Shown: positions 52,352 to 57,740, counted from the first letter of the stretch. The stretch: 64,000 nt of DNA from Bacteroidales bacterium (GCA_024402335.1 JAKSTZ010000004.1:30058-94057); one strand, 5' to 3'. Notes: generated from the sequence alone by a model not told the origin. Program-made: numbers and translations.

Positions 52352-52375
52352 AAGGCGAACCCCTCGATTCGCCTT
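52352..52375. terminator. Hairpin between the oxidoreductase gene and the island (left island boundary)
   Basis: AAGGCGAA-CCCCTCGA-TTCGCCTT. The T-run lies on the minus-strand side. Confidence 0.6.
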
Positions 52376-52391
52376 AGAATGTTTATGAACA

Positions 52392-53723
52392 TTATAAATC
52401 CTTACGAAATTTCTTGTCTAAAACACGAATTTTAGACAAACATTCTTCTTTAGTAAGGTTTTTATAGCATAATCGAGAGCCGTTTTTTTCTCCTTGGTCT
52501 AAACCATATTTATTTATGAAATCAGACAAATTAAAACCATCGGTATTACTATATCTGGATGATGTTTGAATTTCATAGCTATTTTTATTGAGTATAACAT
52601 CTATAAAAGGACGATCTTCAATTACAGTAGAATTATTTTTCCCATCATAATCAATAGCAAGACATCTTTCAAAATATGGCCAAGAATGAACAGGTAATTG
52701 TCTAATTTCAGAATGGATCTCATCTAGTAACTGTATTAAACTATCCATATAAGTTGCTATTGCTGTCAACATTGACAAAACATAATTGGAGAAATCTTTA
52801 TTTTCTCCATTTTGTAAATCCTCCATCAAGTTTGGTCGTTTGATGAAGTTATCTTTTTTAGGAAAATAAATCCACCAACAATTTTCTTGACTATACTTTC
52901 CACCAAATTTCCATTTAAGATGTTGATATACATCGTGTTGTAAGCCGTTGTGATCTTTAATATCAGCCCAAAAATACCATCCCTCTTCATAATCAACTCC
53001 AAAATGGGCAAATTCCTTTTTGTAACGTATAGGGGAGTTTTTACCAAGATCCTCTTCAACAGATTTCCAACCTAACTTTTCAATATTATAAACAAAGCTA
53101 TTCCAATCTGATGTCTTTATTTCAGCAATTTCTTTTGCTTTTGTCGCTTCAAGATTTTCACAGAAATTCTTTATAGCTTGTTTTATATTTTCATCGTCAT
53201 TGTATGGTAAATCTATATTTTTTTCTTCTTTCGAATATAGTTCCTCTTTCATACACTGAACTATACCGAATAAATTCTCTAAAATAGTTTCTGATTTTGA
53301 TTTGTTATTTTCCTGTTTAACATCGTCCGCAGCCATAATGTTTTTCACGCATTCGCTAATTTGCTTAATATGTTCACTTGAGGTGTGAATCATAGCTAAA
53401 TGCGAAATACTAAATTGAAGATGGATAGCCTCCTCTGTTGTTATTTCTCCATCTTCAAGAGAATCGCATAGTTTCTCTAAGAATGATTTATATACAGAAA
53501 GCTTCTCTTCAAAAACTTTAGTATTCCTTTCTTTCACCTCTTCGGTTGCAGTTTGCCCTTGAAGGAGTAACATAGTAATAATTGCAGCGATAATTGCACC
53601 AGCTATTGCCGCAAACAACTGCGATGCGATTTCTAAACCCATCCACGCTCCGCAAAGCCAAGCCAATAGGATGAAGAAAATCATTAAGACTGTTCCTAGT
53701 GTGTAAATTTTTTTGTTTTCCAT
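52392..53723 (-). CDS. Uncharacterised membrane protein (2 N-terminal TM helices plus a ~370-aa soluble region), translationally coupled to the DUF262/DUF1524 gene
   Basis: The start at MENKK (ATG 53721-53723) overlaps the upstream TAA as TAATG. The TM helices are IYTLGTVLMIFFILLAWLCGAWMGL and LFAAIAGAIIAAIITMLLL. I recognise no motif in the remainder. Confidence 0.7.
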   Translation of the reverse strand: MENKKIYTLGTVLMIFFILLAWLCGAWMGLEIASQLFAAIAGAIIAAIITMLLLQGQTATEEVKERNTKVFEEKLSVYKSFLEKLCDSLEDGEITTEEAIHLQFSISHLAMIHTSSEHIKQISECVKNIMAADDVKQENNKSKSETILENLFGIVQCMKEELYSKEEKNIDLPYNDDENIKQAIKNFCENLEATKAKEIAEIKTSDWNSFVYNIEKLGWKSVEEDLGKNSPIRYKKEFAHFGVDYEEGWYFWADIKDHNGLQHDVYQHLKWKFGGKYSQENCWWIYFPKKDNFIKRPNLMEDLQNGENKDFSNYVLSMLTAIATYMDSLIQLLDEIHSEIRQLPVHSWPYFERCLAIDYDGKNNSTVIEDRPFIDVILNKNSYEIQTSSRYSNTDGFNLSDFINKYGLDQGEKNGSRLCYKNLTKEECLSKIRVLDKKFRKDL

Positions 53724-55456
53724 TATATCAAATTTAAATTCCAAATTTCTAATACAGCTTCTTTAATTTTATTATGACGTCGTTCAATAGCATCTTTGTT
53801 CCAGACCGGATTATTCTTGTCGCTAACAAATTCAATGATTTCTTTCTGTTGGTTTAAAAGATTGTCTTTCCCATAGGACGCCAATTTGTTGGCAAAAGGT
53901 TTGTTGCCAATAGAACTGTTGTGTGGTTGTGAAATCAACATTAAATTGCCAACACAATTCAACCAATGACCTGACTCAATTCCATTTTCAGGAATTTCTT
54001 TATCTGTATATATACCATATCCATTTGCAAGTGGGTCGCCATTGGTTGGTGTTTGTGGGGCAATATGTTCGATACTTTCGTTGCGAATTAAATCACTGAA
54101 CTTAACTTTGTGTGGCATAGGATGGTTCTCGTTGCACAAATACAACTCATATTTCCATAGAAGATAATTATCAACACGATTTTTGTAGAACCTATCCGAA
54201 TCAACCCAACGTATCATTTCGTTGTCGCTCCAATAGCCCCACCGCCAATCATTTTTGATTCTATCTATCATCCAATTGATACTGTCGTTTAAAGATTTGT
54301 CATCTTTAATGTTCAAATTGTTGAGAACACAATTGAAACGACGTTCAACATCGGCACGTCCAACACGCAGCAAACTACGGAAGGTAATGTTTTCAAGGAA
54401 ACGAGCCATGCGGTTGAACGTATTTTCACTTGCCTTGCATCTATCGGCTTTGATGAAGAACGGATATGCCAAAGCCATATTATTGAGATAGAAAAGGTCG
54501 GTGATGTAACTATATTTGCTTTGTTTTACCTTGTAAACAGTTTCAAATGCCTGCGAGATACCCGCAACGAAATCTTTAATCCAATCAATCTTCTCCAATT
54601 GGTTTGCGATAGCAGTCTTTACGCCATCAACCACATCATCGCTATAAAAGCCTTTTCCACTGACAGCACGCCAATAATGGTTCAGCACCTCGTCTTCTTT
54701 TTCATCAACCATCACAATGCGTTGATAAATTGTTTCAAACTCACTTTCAAGGTACTTAATATTTTCGTTGATAAGGTCATCGTTTCCGGAAAGGAGATAA
54801 ACCTGAAGCATAAAGTACGACTTGATTTTGTCTAATTTTGATAATGCCTTGCCACGGTCGTTTTGGAAGGCGAAAATCTGTGCGGCCTCTGCTTTGTCGG
54901 ACACTACGAATTGCGTGATGGTGGCATTTTGAACTAAATTATACCATTGCTCAAGCGTTTCTGTCGGGATTTTTGCAAATTCCTCATCAAACAAGGTTTT
55001 TGCCTCGCGAATGTGCTTTTGTGAAAGCGTTGAGGGCTCTTGAGCGTTCTTCTTTTGATTGATTACTTCGTCCACAAAAAAGTTGTTATCGTACTCAACG
55101 GTTCTGAATTTTTGCGTCTGCTTGCGTATGTCGCGTATGTAATAATCCTTGATGTCGTCTAAATCAACAACGATAACTTCTCCTTGTTGTTTTCTATTGC
55201 TCAATTCATTGTACATCGAACTGAAAAAGATGACGCAAGTGGTAAGTCGTTGCTGACCATCAATTATTTGCAAGGTATTTTCGTTGGGCTGTTCAAACAA
55301 GAAATGCCCCAAGTAGTATTTGTTTGATGCATTTTTCAAATCTTCAATGAATTGCATAATTTGTTTTTCACCCCAACTATACGAACGTTGATAAGCAGGT
55401 ATTTCAAACTTCCGATTTTTTGCATCGAAAAGTTTTTGAATAGTAAGTGTTTCCAT
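53723..55456 (-). CDS. DUF262 (ParB-like NTPase) + DUF1524 (His-Me finger) protein, GmrSD-like putative type IV restriction / defence nuclease
   Basis: N-terminus has IPAYQRSYSW, IDGQQRLTT and FAFQNDRGKAL. C-terminus has ESIEHIAPQ and GNLMLISQPHNSSIGNKPF. Confidence 0.85.
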   Translation of the reverse strand: METLTIQKLFDAKNRKFEIPAYQRSYSWGEKQIMQFIEDLKNASNKYYLGHFLFEQPNENTLQIIDGQQRLTTCVIFFSSMYNELSNRKQQGEVIVVDLDDIKDYYIRDIRKQTQKFRTVEYDNNFFVDEVINQKKNAQEPSTLSQKHIREAKTLFDEEFAKIPTETLEQWYNLVQNATITQFVVSDKAEAAQIFAFQNDRGKALSKLDKIKSYFMLQVYLLSGNDDLINENIKYLESEFETIYQRIVMVDEKEDEVLNHYWRAVSGKGFYSDDVVDGVKTAIANQLEKIDWIKDFVAGISQAFETVYKVKQSKYSYITDLFYLNNMALAYPFFIKADRCKASENTFNRMARFLENITFRSLLRVGRADVERRFNCVLNNLNIKDDKSLNDSINWMIDRIKNDWRWGYWSDNEMIRWVDSDRFYKNRVDNYLLWKYELYLCNENHPMPHKVKFSDLIRNESIEHIAPQTPTNGDPLANGYGIYTDKEIPENGIESGHWLNCVGNLMLISQPHNSSIGNKPFANKLASYGKDNLLNQQKEIIEFVSDKNNPVWNKDAIERRHNKIKEAVLEIWNLNLI

Positions 55457-55544
55457 GATTTATTGTCTTAAATTTACTGTACTATTAAAAAAATAAGTAG
55501 AAGCCATTTACCGAAAAACGACTTATACTTTTAATTGAGACACC

Positions 55545-55853
55545 TTATCTATTAGGTCGTTCATTTGTTTTTTTGAACATTACATCATAGGTTGCTATCC
55601 ATGAACCTTTTACAAATGTCATTGTTTGCCCTGCGGCGTTCTTAAACATACCTACAGAAGAAGCTGGAACTTCTTTGATTTTTTTGAAGTTCATATCGTA
55701 TGTTGCTACCCACGAGCCTTTTTGACACACAACAAAAGTTCCTGTGAATCCTAATAATTCTCCTATGGAAGAAACAGGAACTTCCTTGATTTTTTTACCT
55801 TGTTCATTGATTGTAGCAATCCATGAACCTTTGATTTCTACATCTGCTATCAT
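55545..55853 (-). CDS. Small (102 aa) protein built from 2.5 tandem ~38-aa repeats (KGSW[IV]AT...KKIKEVP.SS.G)
   Basis: The internal repeat is visible directly in the translation. The ATG at 55853 is preferred over the TTG at 55883. A -7 box lies at 55913-55920. Confidence 0.55.
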   Translation of the reverse strand: MIADVEIKGSWIATINEQGKKIKEVPVSSIGELLGFTGTFVVCQKGSWVATYDMNFKKIKEVPASSVGMFKNAAGQTMTFVKGSWIATYDVMFKKTNERPNR

Positions 55854-55920: not shown

Positions 55921-55980
55921 TTTTTCTACTGTGCAAAAATCTAGAACACAACAAAAAATTTTTGTTTTCAAATTTTTTCC

Positions 55981-55996
55981 GTAACATATATGTTAC
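55981..55996. promoter_or_regulatory. Perfect palindromic operator GTAACATATATGTTAC (GTAACA-N4-TGTTAC), site 1 in the divergent promoter region
   Basis: A 16-bp perfect inverted repeat between the divergent genes at 55853(-) and 56053(+). Confidence 0.7.
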
Positions 55997-56027
55997 GCAT
56001 TAGGCAAATATAAAAAGAAATCTTTGC

Positions 56028-56043
56028 GTAGCAAATATGTTAC
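56028..56043. promoter_or_regulatory. Operator site 2, GTAGCAAATATGTTAC (one mismatch to GTAACA-N4-TGTTAC)
   Basis: Lies 10-25 nt upstream of the XRE ATG, over the likely transcription start, 47 bp centre-to-centre from site 1. Confidence 0.6.
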
Positions 56044-56052
56044 GCAAAATAA

Positions 56053-56262
56053 ATGGAGTATCAGGAAGAGATTCAGTTAATTGCCTCCAAAATAAGAGCT
56101 TATCGAATAGAAAAGAATCTTTCGGTACAAGACTTGGCGTATCTCTGCGATATGGAGCGTTCAAGTATGAGCAGAATTGAATCTGGCCGAGTGAACATTA
56201 CAATAAAAACTCTTTTTACAATTAGTAAAGCACTTGGTGTTGATATGAAAGACTTAATATAG
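56053..56262 (+). CDS. XRE-family helix-turn-helix transcriptional regulator (69 aa)
   Basis: HTH_3-like sequence IRAYRIEKNLSVQDLAYLCDMERSSMSRIESGRVNITIKTLFTISKALGV. Two palindromic operators lie immediately upstream. Confidence 0.85.
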   Translation: MEYQEEIQLIASKIRAYRIEKNLSVQDLAYLCDMERSSMSRIESGRVNITIKTLFTISKALGVDMKDLI

Positions 56263-56263
56263 T

Positions 56264-57397
56264 CTATTCTTTAAAGAATGAATTCAAATTCTTTTGAACC
56301 CAACGACCAAAAATGGGATCAGACAACTCAACTTTTTTGCCCGTTACTTCTACAATTTCTTTTGATTCTAATGCTTGTATTACGCGAGCCACGTTAGCCG
56401 TTGAACCCAAATTATACTGCTTTATAACTCCCCCAGTATATAAATCCATCGTATGTCCATCTGCAATTGCACGAACCACATTAACTTGATATGCAGATAG
56501 TTCATTCACATATTTTAAAAACAATACATGATTTTGACGCAATAGATCTTGTTGTGCAAGAATTAAATCTTCTTTCGTTGCCACATTTTCCGTCCGTGCC
56601 CATAACAACCAAGCCAAATGCTGAACATACGAAGAATTACCTTCTACAAATAAACAGATATTCTCACATAAATCCTTCGAAATGTCTTTTTGCGTTTTTC
56701 TAAATTGTTGTTGAATATATTCAACCCAATAGTTTGTAGGAATTTTTTCTAAAAACATTACATCTCCAAATTTGTAAAATGGATGAGAAACCTTCCCAAA
56801 CATATTCATTAAAACATGTCGCTTGCTACCAAATAAACAGTACGAAGTATTCTTTTGTAATTGCCATACCGAACGAAGTTTTTTCTGAAAAGACAAAGAA
56901 TCTATAAATTCTCCAATTTGTTGAAATTCATCAATACACACAACAATCCGTACACCACGCTCAATTGCTATGACCTCTGGCAAATTCAATACCTCTGAAT
57001 CATACTTGTTATTTGTAGTTTCCAACGAAAAGGATATTTCACTATCCTGACCGATACTTATTTTAGGAACTAAATTTGAAAGAAATTTCTTCGTATTAGC
57101 AATTAAGGATTCGGTTTTCGTGCTTATTTGTTTTATTATCTCTGTCGCAAAAAGTCTGTAAAAATCCTCCTCATTTCTGCACGCAAAGGCATCCATTTGA
57201 ACAACCAAAATTTCTTTTCTTTCTTTTAGTTGTGAGGCAACTTTATTTACCAAAGACGTTTTGCCTAATCTTCGAGGTGAGATTAATATAGTGTTTATCT
57301 TGTTTGTTAGATTTAATGTTAGTCGATCGGTTTCTTCCAATCGGTCGGTAAAGTGTTCAACGTCAGTGGCTATTCCATATACAAAAGGATTATTCAT
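56264..57397 (-). CDS. AAA+ ATP-binding protein (archaeal-type ATPase PF01637-like with a DUF234-like C-terminal winged helix)
   Basis: NPFVYGIATDVEHFTDRLEE, Walker A SPRRLGKTSLV, and Walker B VVCIDEFQQI. Confidence 0.8.
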   Translation of the reverse strand: MNNPFVYGIATDVEHFTDRLEETDRLTLNLTNKINTILISPRRLGKTSLVNKVASQLKERKEILVVQMDAFACRNEEDFYRLFATEIIKQISTKTESLIANTKKFLSNLVPKISIGQDSEISFSLETTNNKYDSEVLNLPEVIAIERGVRIVVCIDEFQQIGEFIDSLSFQKKLRSVWQLQKNTSYCLFGSKRHVLMNMFGKVSHPFYKFGDVMFLEKIPTNYWVEYIQQQFRKTQKDISKDLCENICLFVEGNSSYVQHLAWLLWARTENVATKEDLILAQQDLLRQNHVLFLKYVNELSAYQVNVVRAIADGHTMDLYTGGVIKQYNLGSTANVARVIQALESKEIVEVTGKKVELSDPIFGRWVQKNLNSFFKE

Positions 57398-57413: not shown

Positions 57414-57421
57414 CAAAAATA
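57414..57421 (-). promoter_or_regulatory. -7 box (TATTTTTG) for the AAA ATPase gene
   Basis: The plus strand reads CAAAAATA, 17 nt upstream of the ATG at 57397. Confidence 0.45.
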
Positions 57422-57433
57422 ATATTTTTCTGA

Positions 57434-57483
57434 TTAGTAACAAAGTTGTTACTAACAAACTTGTTACTAACAACTTTGTTAGT
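57434..57483. promoter_or_regulatory. Array of three 15-bp-phased GTAACA-N4-TGTTAC-type palindromes upstream of the AAA ATPase gene
   Basis: GTAACAAAGTTGTTAC (57437-57452, perfect half-sites), CTAACAAACTTGTTAC (57452-57467) and CTAACAACTTTGTTAG (57467-57482). The array lies just upstream of the -7 box at 57414-57421. Confidence 0.65.
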
Positions 57484-57740
57484 TAATTAATAAATTATAT
57501 TTCAACAAGTTACTTAAAAACATAAAAGTAATATTGCAAGGCAAAACTTGCAAATAATGATATAAAAATTTCCACCAAACCGAAAGGTAAATTTCTCTAT
57601 CTAATAAATTGTCTAAACTTTTTATTATGTTAATCGCATTATGCGATTTGTATAATGTAAAACAAATAATTATATATTCTTTATTCAAAAAAATTTCTTC
57701 AGATTGTTTTTACTTGAATAGATAAAACAACGAAACCAAG

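What the first reader, a model, noticed from the sequence alone, without database searches (positions are those of the whole stretch)
52392..55456. DUF262/DUF1524 (GmrSD-like) nuclease translationally coupled to an unrecognisable 2-TM protein: candidate two-gene defence system
Seen in sequence: the 577-aa protein carries the DUF262 motifs (IPAYQRSYSW, DGQQRLTT, FQNDRGKAL) and the DUF1524 His-Me finger motifs (EHIAPQ, GNLMLISQPHNSSIGNKPF). Its TAA stop shares a nucleotide with the ATG of the next gene (TAATG at 53721-53725), which implies co-translation and matched expression. The partner is 443 aa, with two N-terminal TM helices and a ~370-aa soluble region rich in W, Y, K and E. I can match that region to no family by eye. 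Established knowledge: DUF262/DUF1524 proteins act as stand-alone type IV restriction enzymes (GmrSD), or as accessory nucleases of BREX (BrxU) and Ssp (SspE). No BREX, Ssp or Dnd partner is present in this window. Inference: the membrane partner could be an abortive-infection effector, a sensor, or a localisation factor, which would make this a pairing I do not recognise as described.
Basis: partly seen in the sequence, partly recalled or inferred. Interest (0 to 1): 0.82.

Follow-up and report, generated by a model that had tools for sequence, protein, structure and literature searches.

The report
GmrSD nuclease with unnamed membrane partner
A known kind of phage-defence nuclease that cuts modified DNA sits in one operon with a small repeat protein and a membrane protein from a sizeable, unnamed family that often, but not always, accompanies enzymes attacking modified DNA.

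Summary
On the minus strand a 577-aa GmrSD-like gene (53723..55456) ends in TAATG, which overlaps the ATG of a 443-aa 2-TM protein, here called PAR (52392..53723).

The nuclease is ordinary. It matches the validated single-gene defence HEC-06 over its full length.

PAR is the new part:
- It has no Pfam, NCBIfam, PHROG or PADLOC match and no fold match.
- Its N-terminal module (2 TM plus a helical bundle) defines an unnamed family of about 1,100 clusters at 50% identity, with swappable C-terminal domains.

The linkage to GmrSD is real but facultative:
- 18 of 54 PAR lineages carry a GmrSD gene close by, drawn from 6 clades and in both gene orders.
- All 55 GmrSD ORFs found are co-oriented with PAR.
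- PAR's largest lineage has no nuclease.
- Of five closer GmrSD relatives looked up, four (62-73% identical) lack PAR.
- Other PAR partners are UDG-like glycosylases and DEDD exonucleases.

Across six assemblies, PAR DNA is essentially invariant, while the small gene and the GmrSD N-terminal part are swapped alleles.

Verdict: a modular type IV restriction operon with a new accessory family. It is not an obligate two-gene system, and PAR's mechanism is only inferred.

The parts
53723..55456 (-). GmrSD-like type IV restriction nuclease of the HEC-06 clade, 577 aa: DUF262 with the DGQQR motif plus a DUF1524 His-Me finger with EH
   Evidence: Pfam GmrSD_N 1.3e-33 and GmrSD_C 6.7e-16. PADLOC HEC-06 1.3e-45, covering residues 3-574 against profile positions 9-560 of 562. 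Motifs are visible in the translation.
52392..53723 (-). PAR: 443-aa inner-membrane protein with 2 TM helices, a conserved cytoplasmic helical bundle (to about residue 170-198) and a lineage-variable alpha/beta C-terminal domain (about 207-442). It belongs to an unnamed family.
   Evidence: No hit in Pfam, PADLOC, NCBIfam or PHROGs. The profile of the N-terminal module finds 1,099 clusters at 50% identity. AF2 models have pLDDT 74 and 71. There are no Foldseek hits at E<=1e-3.
53721..53725 (-). TAATG stop/start overlap between the GmrSD and PAR genes
   Evidence: Sequence. The same overlap is called in L135-L137.
55545..55853 (-). S: 102-aa protein made of three 37-aa repeats (3 x 111 nt). It is the first gene of the operon and is hypervariable between strains.
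   Evidence: ORF and translation. 111-nt direct repeats (D1). c4-type homologues lie upstream of PAR and/or GmrSD in 7 PAR lineages, all 7 of which carry GmrSD, and upstream of GmrSD without PAR in L138. Allelic replacement, 40% aa identity, occurs in otherwise near-identical loci.
56053..56262 (+). Divergently transcribed 69-aa XRE-type HTH, resembling a restriction-modification C-protein (controller)
   Evidence: ORF. PADLOC Control_protein 6.8e-13. HTH_3/HTH_31 called at the same position in L135 and L136.
55975..56049 (.). Two related palindromic boxes (CCGTAACATATATGTTACGCA and TGCGTAGCAAATATGTTACGCA), 47 nt apart, in the divergent promoter region. Candidate operator sites for the HTH protein.
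   Evidence: the repeat finder D4 and I2; sequence. The operator function is an inference.
52352..52375 (-). Terminator-like hairpin 17 nt after the PAR stop codon, marking the end of the operon
   Evidence: Scan result: 10-bp stem, 5 GC pairs, T-run.
56264..57397 (-). 377-aa AAA ATPase (ATPase_2/AAA_14/KAP-like), a recurrent neighbour of this GmrSD clade. It may be part of the same islet; its functional link is unknown.
   Evidence: Pfam. The same family lies next to a 73%-identical GmrSD without PAR (L143-145) and after PAR in L037. 99-100% nt identity across assemblies.
54150..55853 (-). Hypervariable segment: the S gene plus the DUF262 and middle domains of GmrSD. Old alleles are exchanged by recombination.
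   Evidence: 61-85% nt identity, against 92-95% for glnS. dS is above 1.2 or saturated, against 0.42 for glnS. L001 is recombinant within the gene.
52400..54100 (-). Invariant block: the last ~125 codons of GmrSD (end of DUF1524) plus all of PAR, 100% identical at the DNA level in the other assemblies compared
   Evidence: PAR is 1332/1332 nt identical to L001, L002, L135 and L136, with one synonymous difference in L137. Sliding identity profile.

Best explanation
The locus is a small defence islet inserted between glnS and an oxidoreductase gene in a Bacteroidales genome. A C-protein-like HTH regulator faces a three-gene operon, S - GmrSD - PAR.

Shown or strongly supported: GmrSD is a HEC-06-clade type IV restriction nuclease. 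It is the DNA-cutting effector against phage DNA carrying modified bases, and by analogy with tested relatives it should work on its own.

Shown: PAR belongs to an unnamed family of inner-membrane proteins. A conserved 2-TM plus helical-bundle module is joined to swappable cytoplasmic C-terminal domains. The family is a recurrent, co-transcribed but facultative companion of enzymes that attack modified DNA (GmrSD of six clades, UDG-like glycosylases, often a DEDD exonuclease). It is usually found with a small beta-repeat protein.

Inferred: PAR is an add-on membrane module, not a subunit the nuclease needs. Its variable cytoplasmic domain receives a cue linked to the DNA-targeting partner or to infection. 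Its conserved membrane module then acts at the inner membrane. That action is either a second, abortive layer when restriction is insufficient, or concentration of the response where phage DNA enters.

Inferred: S and the N-terminal sensing part of GmrSD are the arms-race determinants, since these parts are swapped between strains.
For: Nuclease identity:
- Pfam and a full-length HEC-06 profile match.
- HEC-06 is validated as a single gene, with DGQQR and EH mutants losing defence.
- A Bacteroides HEC-06 homologue alone defends E. coli against T-even phages, less so against T4-GT7.

Operon structure:
- TAATG overlap and a terminator-like hairpin after PAR.
- The same S-GmrSD-PAR arrangement with the HTH gene in L135-137.
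- In rumen relatives, S-PAR-GmrSD sits between two consecutive conserved terminator-like hairpins.

PAR family:
- The conserved N-terminal module and variable C-termini.
- 1,099 clusters found by the N-terminal profile.
- Essentially no Pfam domain in 116 members.

Linkage:
- 18 of 54 lineages have GmrSD, from 6 clades.
- 55 of 55 GmrSD ORFs are co-oriented with PAR.
- UDG-like partners occur in 9 lineages, a DEDD exonuclease in 13 and an S protein in 31.
- C-terminal domains are shared with a UDG-like neighbour and with the PADLOC candidate PDC-S26.

Facultative in both directions.

Arms-race signature: S and the GmrSD N-part are hypervariable, while PAR is invariant.

Control: the HTH hits RM controller proteins, and there are paired palindromes.
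Against: - No experiment exists, and no fold or sequence similarity gives PAR an activity. The membrane-effector role rests on architecture and context only.
- Tight spacing and shared orientation also occur between independent systems packed into defence islands.
- PAR and GmrSD show no co-phylogeny (Mantel r=0.20; 213 of 2000 permutations reach it), so a physical or signalling link is not demonstrated.
- PAR's largest lineage sits between housekeeping genes with only two unknown proteins. The family's function may therefore have nothing to do with DNA-targeting enzymes.
- The AF2 models are of moderate confidence (pLDDT 71-74).
- The locus sample is biased towards Bacteroidales and towards short contigs.
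Confidence: 0.5

Rival explanations
1. PAR, with or without S, is an autonomous defence or exclusion module that merely shares a hotspot and a transcript with GmrSD. Two independent systems are packed together with no mechanistic cross-talk.
For: Both genes occur without the other. In L004 a terminator-like hairpin separates S-PAR from the GmrSD genes. There is no co-phylogeny. A relative's C-terminal domain occurs in a PADLOC single-gene candidate, PDC-S26. HEC-06 works as a single gene.
Against: The partners found next to PAR are not a random sample of defence genes. They are dominated by enzymes acting on modified DNA: GmrSD in 18 lineages and UDG-like proteins in 9. Stop/start overlap or gaps of 2-18 nt recur in both gene orders and with different GmrSD clades. 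In several lineages the trio lies inside one hairpin-bounded unit.
Confidence: 0.27
2. PAR is a membrane tether or activator. Its cytoplasmic domain binds GmrSD (or the glycosylase) and holds it at the inner membrane, where phage DNA enters, so that incoming modified DNA is cut during injection.
For: Both termini and the whole soluble part are predicted cytoplasmic. Translational coupling would give matched amounts of the two proteins. A PAR C-terminal domain type is shared with the UDG-like partner in the same operon, which could mediate pairing. The invariant block joins the DUF1524 end to PAR. Precedents for membrane-associated anti-phage nucleases are from my own knowledge and were not checked here.
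Against: A pure tether should not persist without its client, yet many PAR lineages have no nuclease nearby. PAR's C-terminal type does not track the partner type. Close GmrSD relatives do without PAR. The most conserved part of PAR is the membrane-proximal module, not the supposed binding domain.
Confidence: 0.13
3. PAR is not a defence protein at all. It could be a housekeeping or mobile-element membrane protein, or an antitoxin-like brake on nuclease toxicity, and its adjacency to GmrSD is incidental.
For: The largest lineage lies among housekeeping genes, next to a cation-efflux gene and glycan-related genes. No family or fold hit exists. A C-protein-like controller suggests that something in the operon is toxic on entry.
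Against: The linkage to GmrSD, UDG-like, DEDD exonuclease, WYL and RhuM/Fic genes is strong, co-oriented and recurrent. PAR is absent from phage, plasmid and viral-contig collections. It shares a domain with a PADLOC defence candidate. Close GmrSD relatives need no brake.
Confidence: 0.1

Closest known systems
HEC-06 (PADLOC; GmrSD-like single-gene type IV restriction defence; Payne et al., bioRxiv 10.1101/2024.01.29.577857) and the Bacteroides homologue HEC-06Bact (PMC12366544)
   Same: Same DUF262 - linker - DUF1524 architecture, the DGQQR and EH motifs, about 570 aa, and a full-length profile match at 1.3e-45.
   Different: HEC-06 is described and tested as a single gene. Here it is the middle gene of an S-GmrSD-PAR operon under a C-protein-like regulator. 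Neither S nor PAR is part of any described HEC-06 system.
BrxU (BREX-associated) and SspE (Ssp-associated) GmrSD-like nucleases
   Same: Same two-domain nuclease superfamily. These are GmrSD-like enzymes that work as accessories of larger systems.
   Different: No BREX or Ssp genes are in the window. SspE profiles match only in pieces. The companion here is a 2-TM protein of unknown fold, not a modification system.
Two-gene DUF262 systems (GmrS/GmrD as first described; TgvAB of Vibrio cholerae, PMC11411939, listed but not read)
   Same: GmrSD-family defence encoded by more than one gene. Some PAR loci (L003, L004, L028, L051) carry two adjacent GmrSD-like genes.
   Different: In the window the second gene is not a DUF262 or DUF1524 protein.
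Type II Metis MisC (bioRxiv 10.1101/2025.11.05.686725)
   Same: A membrane protein without annotated domains, in a small defence operon. Its cytoplasmic pocket senses a modified mononucleotide released by DNA degradation and triggers membrane toxicity. It is a working analogy for what PAR could do downstream of a nuclease, glycosylase or exonuclease.
   Different: MisC has three TM helices and pairs with a HAD phosphatase. PAR has two TM helices and a different partner set. This is an analogy, not membership.
Membrane sensor plus cytoplasmic DNA effector systems (Kiwa KwaA/KwaB, Zorya ZorAB with ZorC/D) and guard-type 2-TM effectors (for example retron Ec48). From my own knowledge, not checked here.
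   Same: The general logic of pairing a membrane protein with a DNA-targeting protein, or a membrane effector that backs up a first-line system.
   Different: No homology: one ZorA and one ZorB hit at about 3e-4 among 116 family members is noise. The TM number and domain content differ.
PADLOC candidate PDC-S26
   Same: Shares the ~160-aa C-terminal domain of type-1 PAR relatives from Pasteurellaceae, Capnocytophaga and some Bacteroidales (E about 1e-19 to 1e-21; profile positions 247-408 of 413).
   Different: Its N-terminal 246 profile positions do not match PAR. The window's PAR has a type-0 C-terminus and gives no PDC-S26 hit.

Membership tests
GmrSD / HEC-06 type IV restriction nucleases | N-terminal DUF262 (GmrSD_N, ParB-like NTPase) domain with the DGQQR motif | tested here: met
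   Pfam PF03235 at 1.3e-33, residues 6-216. IDGQQRLTT is in the translation.
GmrSD / HEC-06 type IV restriction nucleases | C-terminal DUF1524 (GmrSD_C) His-Me finger with an acidic-His motif | tested here: met
   Pfam PF07510 at 6.7e-16, residues 411-565. EHIAPQ and GNLMLISQPHNSSIGNKPF are in the translation.
GmrSD / HEC-06 type IV restriction nucleases | Collinear full-length match to the HEC-06 profiles | tested here: met
   PDLC04155 at 1.3e-45, protein residues 3-574 against profile 9-560 of 562. Two further HEC-06 models match at about 1e-43 to 1e-45.
GmrSD / HEC-06 type IV restriction nucleases | Modification-dependent cleavage and phage defence by the single gene | not testable with these tools
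   Shown for HEC-06 and for a Bacteroides homologue in the literature. Relatives 62-73% identical occur without PAR, which fits single-gene function.
BrxU (BREX accessory) / SspE (Ssp accessory) | Encoded within or next to BREX (PglZ, PglX, BrxC) or SspABCD genes | tested here: not met
   None of the window's eight other ORFs of 450 aa or more hits any PADLOC model at 1e-5. The flanking genes are glnS, an AAA ATPase and an oxidoreductase.
   18 of 54 PAR lineages, or 12 of 31 with usable flanks. 55 of 55 GmrSD ORFs are on PAR's strand. Overlaps or gaps of 2-18 nt occur in several lineages.
   36 of 54 PAR lineages have no GmrSD in the sequence held. Of five GmrSD relatives looked up, the four at 62-73% identity lack PAR. 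Mantel r=0.20, reached by 213 of 2000 permutations.
   Needs deletion mutants and phage assays.
Described 2-TM / TM effector families of defence systems (SLATT, CBASS/Pycsar TM effectors, Zorya, Abi proteins in PADLOC) | Profile match to a described family | tested here: not met
   No Pfam, PADLOC, NCBIfam or PHROG hit for PAR. Among 116 family members there are only scattered hits. No Foldseek hit at E<=1e-3 in PDB or BFVD.
Type II Metis (MisC/MisB) | Three-TM MisC next to a HAD phosphatase MisB | tested here: not met
   PAR has two TM segments. No phosphatase is in the operon. Sequence homology to MisC was not tested.
Restriction-modification controller (C) proteins | Small XRE-type HTH next to palindromic boxes upstream of the controlled genes | tested here: met
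   PADLOC Control_protein at 6.8e-13. Two related palindromes lie at 55975-55999 and 56025-56049. Regulation itself was not tested.

The most novel reading that the evidence does not exclude
The PAR family is a new class of inner-membrane immune effector-sensors. The adjacent nuclease or glycosylase, often with a DEDD exonuclease, destroys modified phage DNA. PAR's variable cytoplasmic domain detects a product of that destruction (a modified base or nucleotide) or the inhibition of the enzyme. The conserved 2-TM module then collapses the membrane. This would turn type IV restriction into a two-layer system that restricts first and then aborts infection, analogous to MisC in type II Metis. The small repeat protein S would be a further specificity or regulatory subunit.
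Probability: 0.12. Interest if true: 0.85.

Novelty: new variant of a known kind. Interest (0 to 1): 0.6.

Why it matters
GmrSD-type enzymes are treated as stand-alone type IV restriction enzymes or as accessories of BREX and Ssp. This locus and its relatives show a third context. A recurring cassette joins them, or UDG-like glycosylases, to an unnamed membrane protein family of about 1,100 clusters and to small repeat proteins, mostly in gut and rumen Bacteroidales but also in Pasteurellaceae and Neisseria.

If the membrane protein cooperates with the nuclease, it would link recognition of modified DNA to the cell envelope. That could mean action at the DNA entry site or an abortive back-up, and it would add a new gene family to defence-finding tools.

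The mosaic pattern gives a clear hypothesis for which parts are in the arms race. The S gene and the nuclease sensing domains are hypervariable, while the flanking PAR block is invariant even at the DNA level.

If the genes prove independent, the result is still useful. The family becomes a good candidate for a new single-gene or two-gene defence.

Tried and rejected
Identifying PAR:
- Pfam, NCBIfam, PHROGs and PADLOC gave nothing for the window protein.
- A PDB sequence-profile search gave nothing.
- Foldseek with the full-length model against PDB and BFVD, and with a C-terminal-domain model against PDB, gave no hit at E<=1e-3. The best weak hits were helical bundles and tandem RWD/UBC-like folds (Knl1, E 0.03), which I treat only as a hint.
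- Pfam at relaxed E-values on nine C-terminal domain types gave only noise, such as TBP-TOTE at 0.036 and PsbP at 0.022. One relative carries Sel1 repeats.

Leads that failed:
- By eye, the C-termini of P0021 and P0039 looked EVE/PUA-like (modified-base readers). Pfam at E<=1 does not support this.
- Homology between type-0 and type-1 C-terminal domains: hhalign probability 2%.
- Phage or plasmid origin of PAR: no tblastn hits and no viral-contig relatives.
- Co-evolution of PAR with GmrSD: the Mantel test is not significant.
- A homologue search for the window's S protein found only 4 proteins, because the sequence is too divergent for the word index.
- In-situ positive selection as the cause of GmrSD variability: omega is about 0.1 with saturated dS, so these are old alleles exchanged by recombination.

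Other notes:
- An early by-eye tally of about 24 of the 54 genome loci with GmrSD counted loci, not lineages. The figure used here, 18 of 54 lineages, comes from clustering all 134 loci at 80% identity.
- A metagenome scan with alignment A3 failed for lack of a conserved stretch and was redone with A1.


Full report
OBSERVATION

The 577-aa ORF is 53723..55456. The partner ORF is 52392..53744 from a TTG, or 443 aa from the ATG at 53723. The plus strand at 53721-53725 reads CATTA, which is TAATG on the coding strand, so the stop and start codons share a base. Independent gene calls on three other assemblies show the same overlap.

Pfam assigns GmrSD_N (1.3e-33) and GmrSD_C (6.7e-16) to the nuclease and nothing credible to the partner. 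Hydropathy and the AF2 model give two N-terminal TM helices with both termini in the cytoplasm. None of the eight other ORFs of 450 aa or more in the window hits a PADLOC model, so there is no sign of a BREX, Ssp or Dnd partner.

WHAT ELSE BELONGS TO THE UNIT

A 102-aa ORF lies 89 nt upstream of the nuclease, at 55545..55853 (-). It is made of three 37-aa repeats (3 x 111 nt). I call it S.

Upstream of S, and divergently oriented, is a 69-aa XRE-type HTH gene at 56053..56262 (+). It matches PADLOC's restriction-modification Control_protein models (6.8e-13). Between this gene and S lie two related palindromic boxes at 55975-55999 and 56025-56049.

A terminator-like hairpin follows the PAR stop codon. 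The unit is therefore HTH <-> S - GmrSD - PAR. It is flanked by an AAA ATPase gene and glnS on one side and a Gfo/Idh/MocA oxidoreductase gene on the other. The same arrangement is present in L001, L002 and L135-137, which are Bacteroidales MAGs and metagenome contigs, including horse faeces.

THE NUCLEASE IS A KNOWN KIND

Its best PADLOC matches are three HEC-06 profiles. The match is full-length (residues 3-574 against profile 9-560 of 562) at 1.3e-45. Matches to SspE are weaker or partial.

HEC-06 is a single-gene GmrSD-like defence validated in E. coli. Mutating its DGQQR or EH motifs abolishes defence. A Bacteroides HEC-06 homologue expressed alone protects E. coli from T-even phages in a modification-dependent way.

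The clade is large, with more than 1,330 proteins at E<=1e-40.

THE PARTNER (PAR) IS UNRECOGNISED, BUT IT IS NOT AN ORPHAN

A word-indexed search found 53 relatives, none with a Pfam domain. Alignments show that only the first ~170 residues are conserved. These comprise two TM helices, a (L)LxGQT motif at the membrane edge, a charged helix (EEKKERNTKVFEEKLRIYQxFL) and a helical bundle with an MHT motif. Invariant or near-invariant residues are L53, Q57, E61, E62, K74, Y78, F81, D91, E98, H113 and Y163.

A profile of this module searched against 1.84 billion representatives finds 1,099 clusters at 50% identity with E<=1e-3, and 755 with E<=1e-10. Of 116 members scanned, essentially none has a Pfam domain.

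The C-terminal part falls into at least four unrelated types. The window's type 0 (~280-320 aa) has its own motifs, such as KWxFGG...WW.Y.

AF2 models were of moderate confidence: full length pLDDT 74, C-terminal domain pLDDT 71 with pTM 0.72. Neither gave a Foldseek hit at E<=1e-3 in PDB or BFVD. No relatives were found in phage records, plasmid records or viral contigs.

IS THE PAIRING MORE THAN CHANCE?

I fetched 54 genome loci and 80 metagenome loci that encode PAR relatives. I called ORFs, built iterated profiles for GmrSD and PAR, and clustered PAR at 80% identity into 54 lineages.

- 18 lineages have a GmrSD-like gene, 16 of them within about 550 nt of PAR.
- Among the 31 lineages with at least 2.5 kb of flank on both sides, 12 have one.
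- All 55 GmrSD ORFs in the 1.36 Mb surveyed lie on PAR's strand.
- Both gene orders occur. GmrSD-PAR is found in the window, L035, L037 and L055. PAR-GmrSD is found in L007-10, L019, L022, L058, L066 and L084.
- Gaps in the tightest cases run from a one-base overlap (-1) to 18 nt.
- The GmrSD genes belong to 6 clades. Eleven lineages use the HEC-06-like clade, and some loci carry two adjacent GmrSD genes.
- In rumen Bacteroidales, the trio S-PAR-GmrSD sits between two consecutive copies of a conserved terminator-like hairpin, which marks it as one unit.

A GmrSD gene is expected near a random gene far less often than this. I could not measure the background directly. The co-orientation result alone has a probability of 2^-18 if counted by lineage.

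BUT THE PAIRING IS FACULTATIVE

The largest PAR lineage (33 loci, Segatella-like, human gut) has the same type-0 C-terminus but no nuclease. It carries two unknown proteins upstream and housekeeping genes around it.

Nine lineages pair PAR with UDG-superfamily-like proteins. Some of these carry the same C-terminal domain as the adjacent PAR, and some are joined to a nucleoside-deoxyribosyltransferase-like domain (my reading of the sequence) or lie next to an Nmad3 gene. Thirteen lineages have a DEDD (RNase_T) exonuclease, often between PAR and GmrSD. Eleven have a WYL regulator.

In the other direction, five closer relatives of the window's GmrSD were looked up:
- the 79%-identical one has S and PAR;
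- one of the two 73%-identical ones has S but no PAR;
- the other 73%-identical one has the AAA ATPase but neither S nor PAR;
- the 64% and 62% ones stand alone, the latter inside an element with RteC and integrases.

PAR and GmrSD similarities are not correlated (Mantel r=0.20; 213 of 2000 permutations reach it).

In L004 a hairpin separates S-PAR from two GmrSD genes. The most constant neighbour of PAR is a small repeat protein, present in 31 of 54 lineages:
- a BNR/Asp-box type (c3) in 16;
- the window's type (c4) in 7;
- a type found in Pasteurellaceae and Neisseria (c24) in 4;
- a double zinc-ribbon type (c17) in 4.

The c4 type is found only where a GmrSD gene is present: 7 of 7 lineages, plus L138 and L142, which lack PAR.

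POPULATION-LEVEL PATTERN

Six assemblies share this locus: the window, L001, L002, L135, L136 and L137.

- The PAR gene is 1332/1332 nt identical in four of the five comparisons with the window, and has one synonymous change in the fifth.
- The invariant block starts inside the last ~125 codons of GmrSD.
- The AAA gene is also 99-100% identical.
- By contrast, glnS is 92-95% identical (dS about 0.42).
- The DUF262 and middle domains of GmrSD are 61-85% identical, with saturated dS and omega about 0.1.
- S is either identical or replaced by an allele with 40% aa identity.
- L001 is recombinant inside GmrSD.

So S and the N-terminal three-quarters of GmrSD are old alleles exchanged by recombination between recently spread, invariant flanks. 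This fits an arms-race determinant. Why the PAR block is identical even at synonymous sites is not explained by purifying selection. It points to recent horizontal spread.

MECHANISM

Shown or strongly supported: GmrSD is a HEC-06-type nuclease that should restrict modified phage DNA on its own. S, GmrSD and PAR are co-transcribed under a C-protein-like controller. PAR is an inner-membrane protein with a cytoplasmic body.

Inferred: PAR is an add-on module. Its architecture is a conserved membrane-proximal module plus a swappable cytoplasmic domain. Its partner set consists almost entirely of enzymes that attack modified bases, often with an exonuclease. It can also exist alone. Together these fit best with a membrane-acting effector or sensor that cooperates with, but is not needed by, the DNA-targeting enzyme.

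A tether at the DNA entry site is a weaker alternative, because a tether should not persist without a client and because the conserved part is not the putative binding domain.

Full independence of the two genes remains a serious rival. The recently described MisC of type II Metis is a domain-less TM protein triggered by a modified mononucleotide. It shows that the most novel reading, in which PAR senses products of modified-DNA destruction, has a precedent. Nothing here tests that reading.

COMPARISON AND NOVELTY

The nuclease is a member of the GmrSD/HEC-06 family, and every feature I could test was met. The operon is not BrxU-like or SspE-like, since the partner systems are absent. It is not a TgvAB-like double-GmrSD system.

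PAR matches no described TM effector family. Only the C-terminal domain of its type-1 relatives is shared with the PADLOC candidate PDC-S26.

I rate the locus a new variant of a known kind: type IV restriction with a new, modular accessory family and a small repeat protein. The proposal of an obligate two-gene system is not supported. The underlying observation, a real and undescribed association, is supported.

Noticed in passing
window 52400-54100 versus 54150-55853 (also L001, L002, L135-L137): The conservation pattern is a mosaic. PAR plus the end of the GmrSD gene is 100% identical at the DNA level across the six assemblies, and the AAA gene is 99-100% identical. The core gene glnS is only 92-95% identical. 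S and the GmrSD N-terminal part are old, swapped alleles (dS saturated, omega about 0.1). The synonymous-site invariance of PAR is unexplained.
   Followed up: partly
L004, L007-L010, L068, L072-L075, L080, L084, L089 (e.g. L009 811 and 4317; L073 has 7 copies): A conserved terminator-like hairpin (AGCCTGTGC-N8-GCACAGGCT followed by a T-run) recurs at gene-cassette borders in rumen Bacteroidales loci, often readable on both strands. It brackets S-PAR-GmrSD as one unit in most of these loci, but separates S-PAR from the GmrSD genes in L004. It is absent from the window. It could be a repeated terminator or a cassette-boundary element.
   Followed up: partly
window 56053-56262 (+) and 55975-56049: The 69-aa HTH matches restriction-modification controller (C) proteins (6.8e-13). 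It sits next to two related palindromes 47 nt apart. C-protein-style control is unusual for a type IV enzyme, which has no methylase.
   Followed up: partly
window 56264-57397 (-); L037; L143-L145: An ATPase_2/AAA_14/KAP-like ATPase recurs beside this GmrSD clade, with or without PAR. It gives a weak PADLOC PDC-S01 hit (4e-4). It may be a further component or a separate defence gene.
   Followed up: no
L012, L032, L033, L039 (e.g. L039 5474-8990): Prevotella-type operons combine a nucleoside-deoxyribosyltransferase-like domain (my reading of the sequence), a UDG-superfamily-like protein whose C-terminal extension is homologous to the adjacent PAR's C-terminal domain, a BNR-type small protein, PAR and three further unknown genes (c7, c8, c15). 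L012 also has an Nmad3 gene.
   Followed up: partly
P0049, P0051; L024, L034, L043: The PADLOC defence candidate PDC-S26 shares only the ~160-aa C-terminal domain of type-1 PAR relatives (profile positions 247-408 of 413).
   Followed up: partly
L142 527-4837: A 63%-identical homologue of S is followed by several short ORFs with GmrSD_N/GmrSD_C hits, probably a frameshifted GmrSD pseudogene. An NTP_transf_2/HepT-like pair lies upstream.
   Followed up: no
window 57417-57502: A long imperfect inverted repeat (42-nt arms with nested 16-18 nt palindromes) lies just upstream of the AAA ATPase start, in a stretch of 26% GC. It could be a regulatory site or the edge of the islet.
   Followed up: no
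L018, L020, L025 and about 30 metagenome loci (e.g. L018 6274-9263): In the largest PAR lineage (Segatella-like, human gut) PAR follows a 201-aa protein and a 339-aa protein with a lipoprotein-like signal and CxxC motifs. Neither has a Pfam hit, and no nuclease is nearby.
   Followed up: partly
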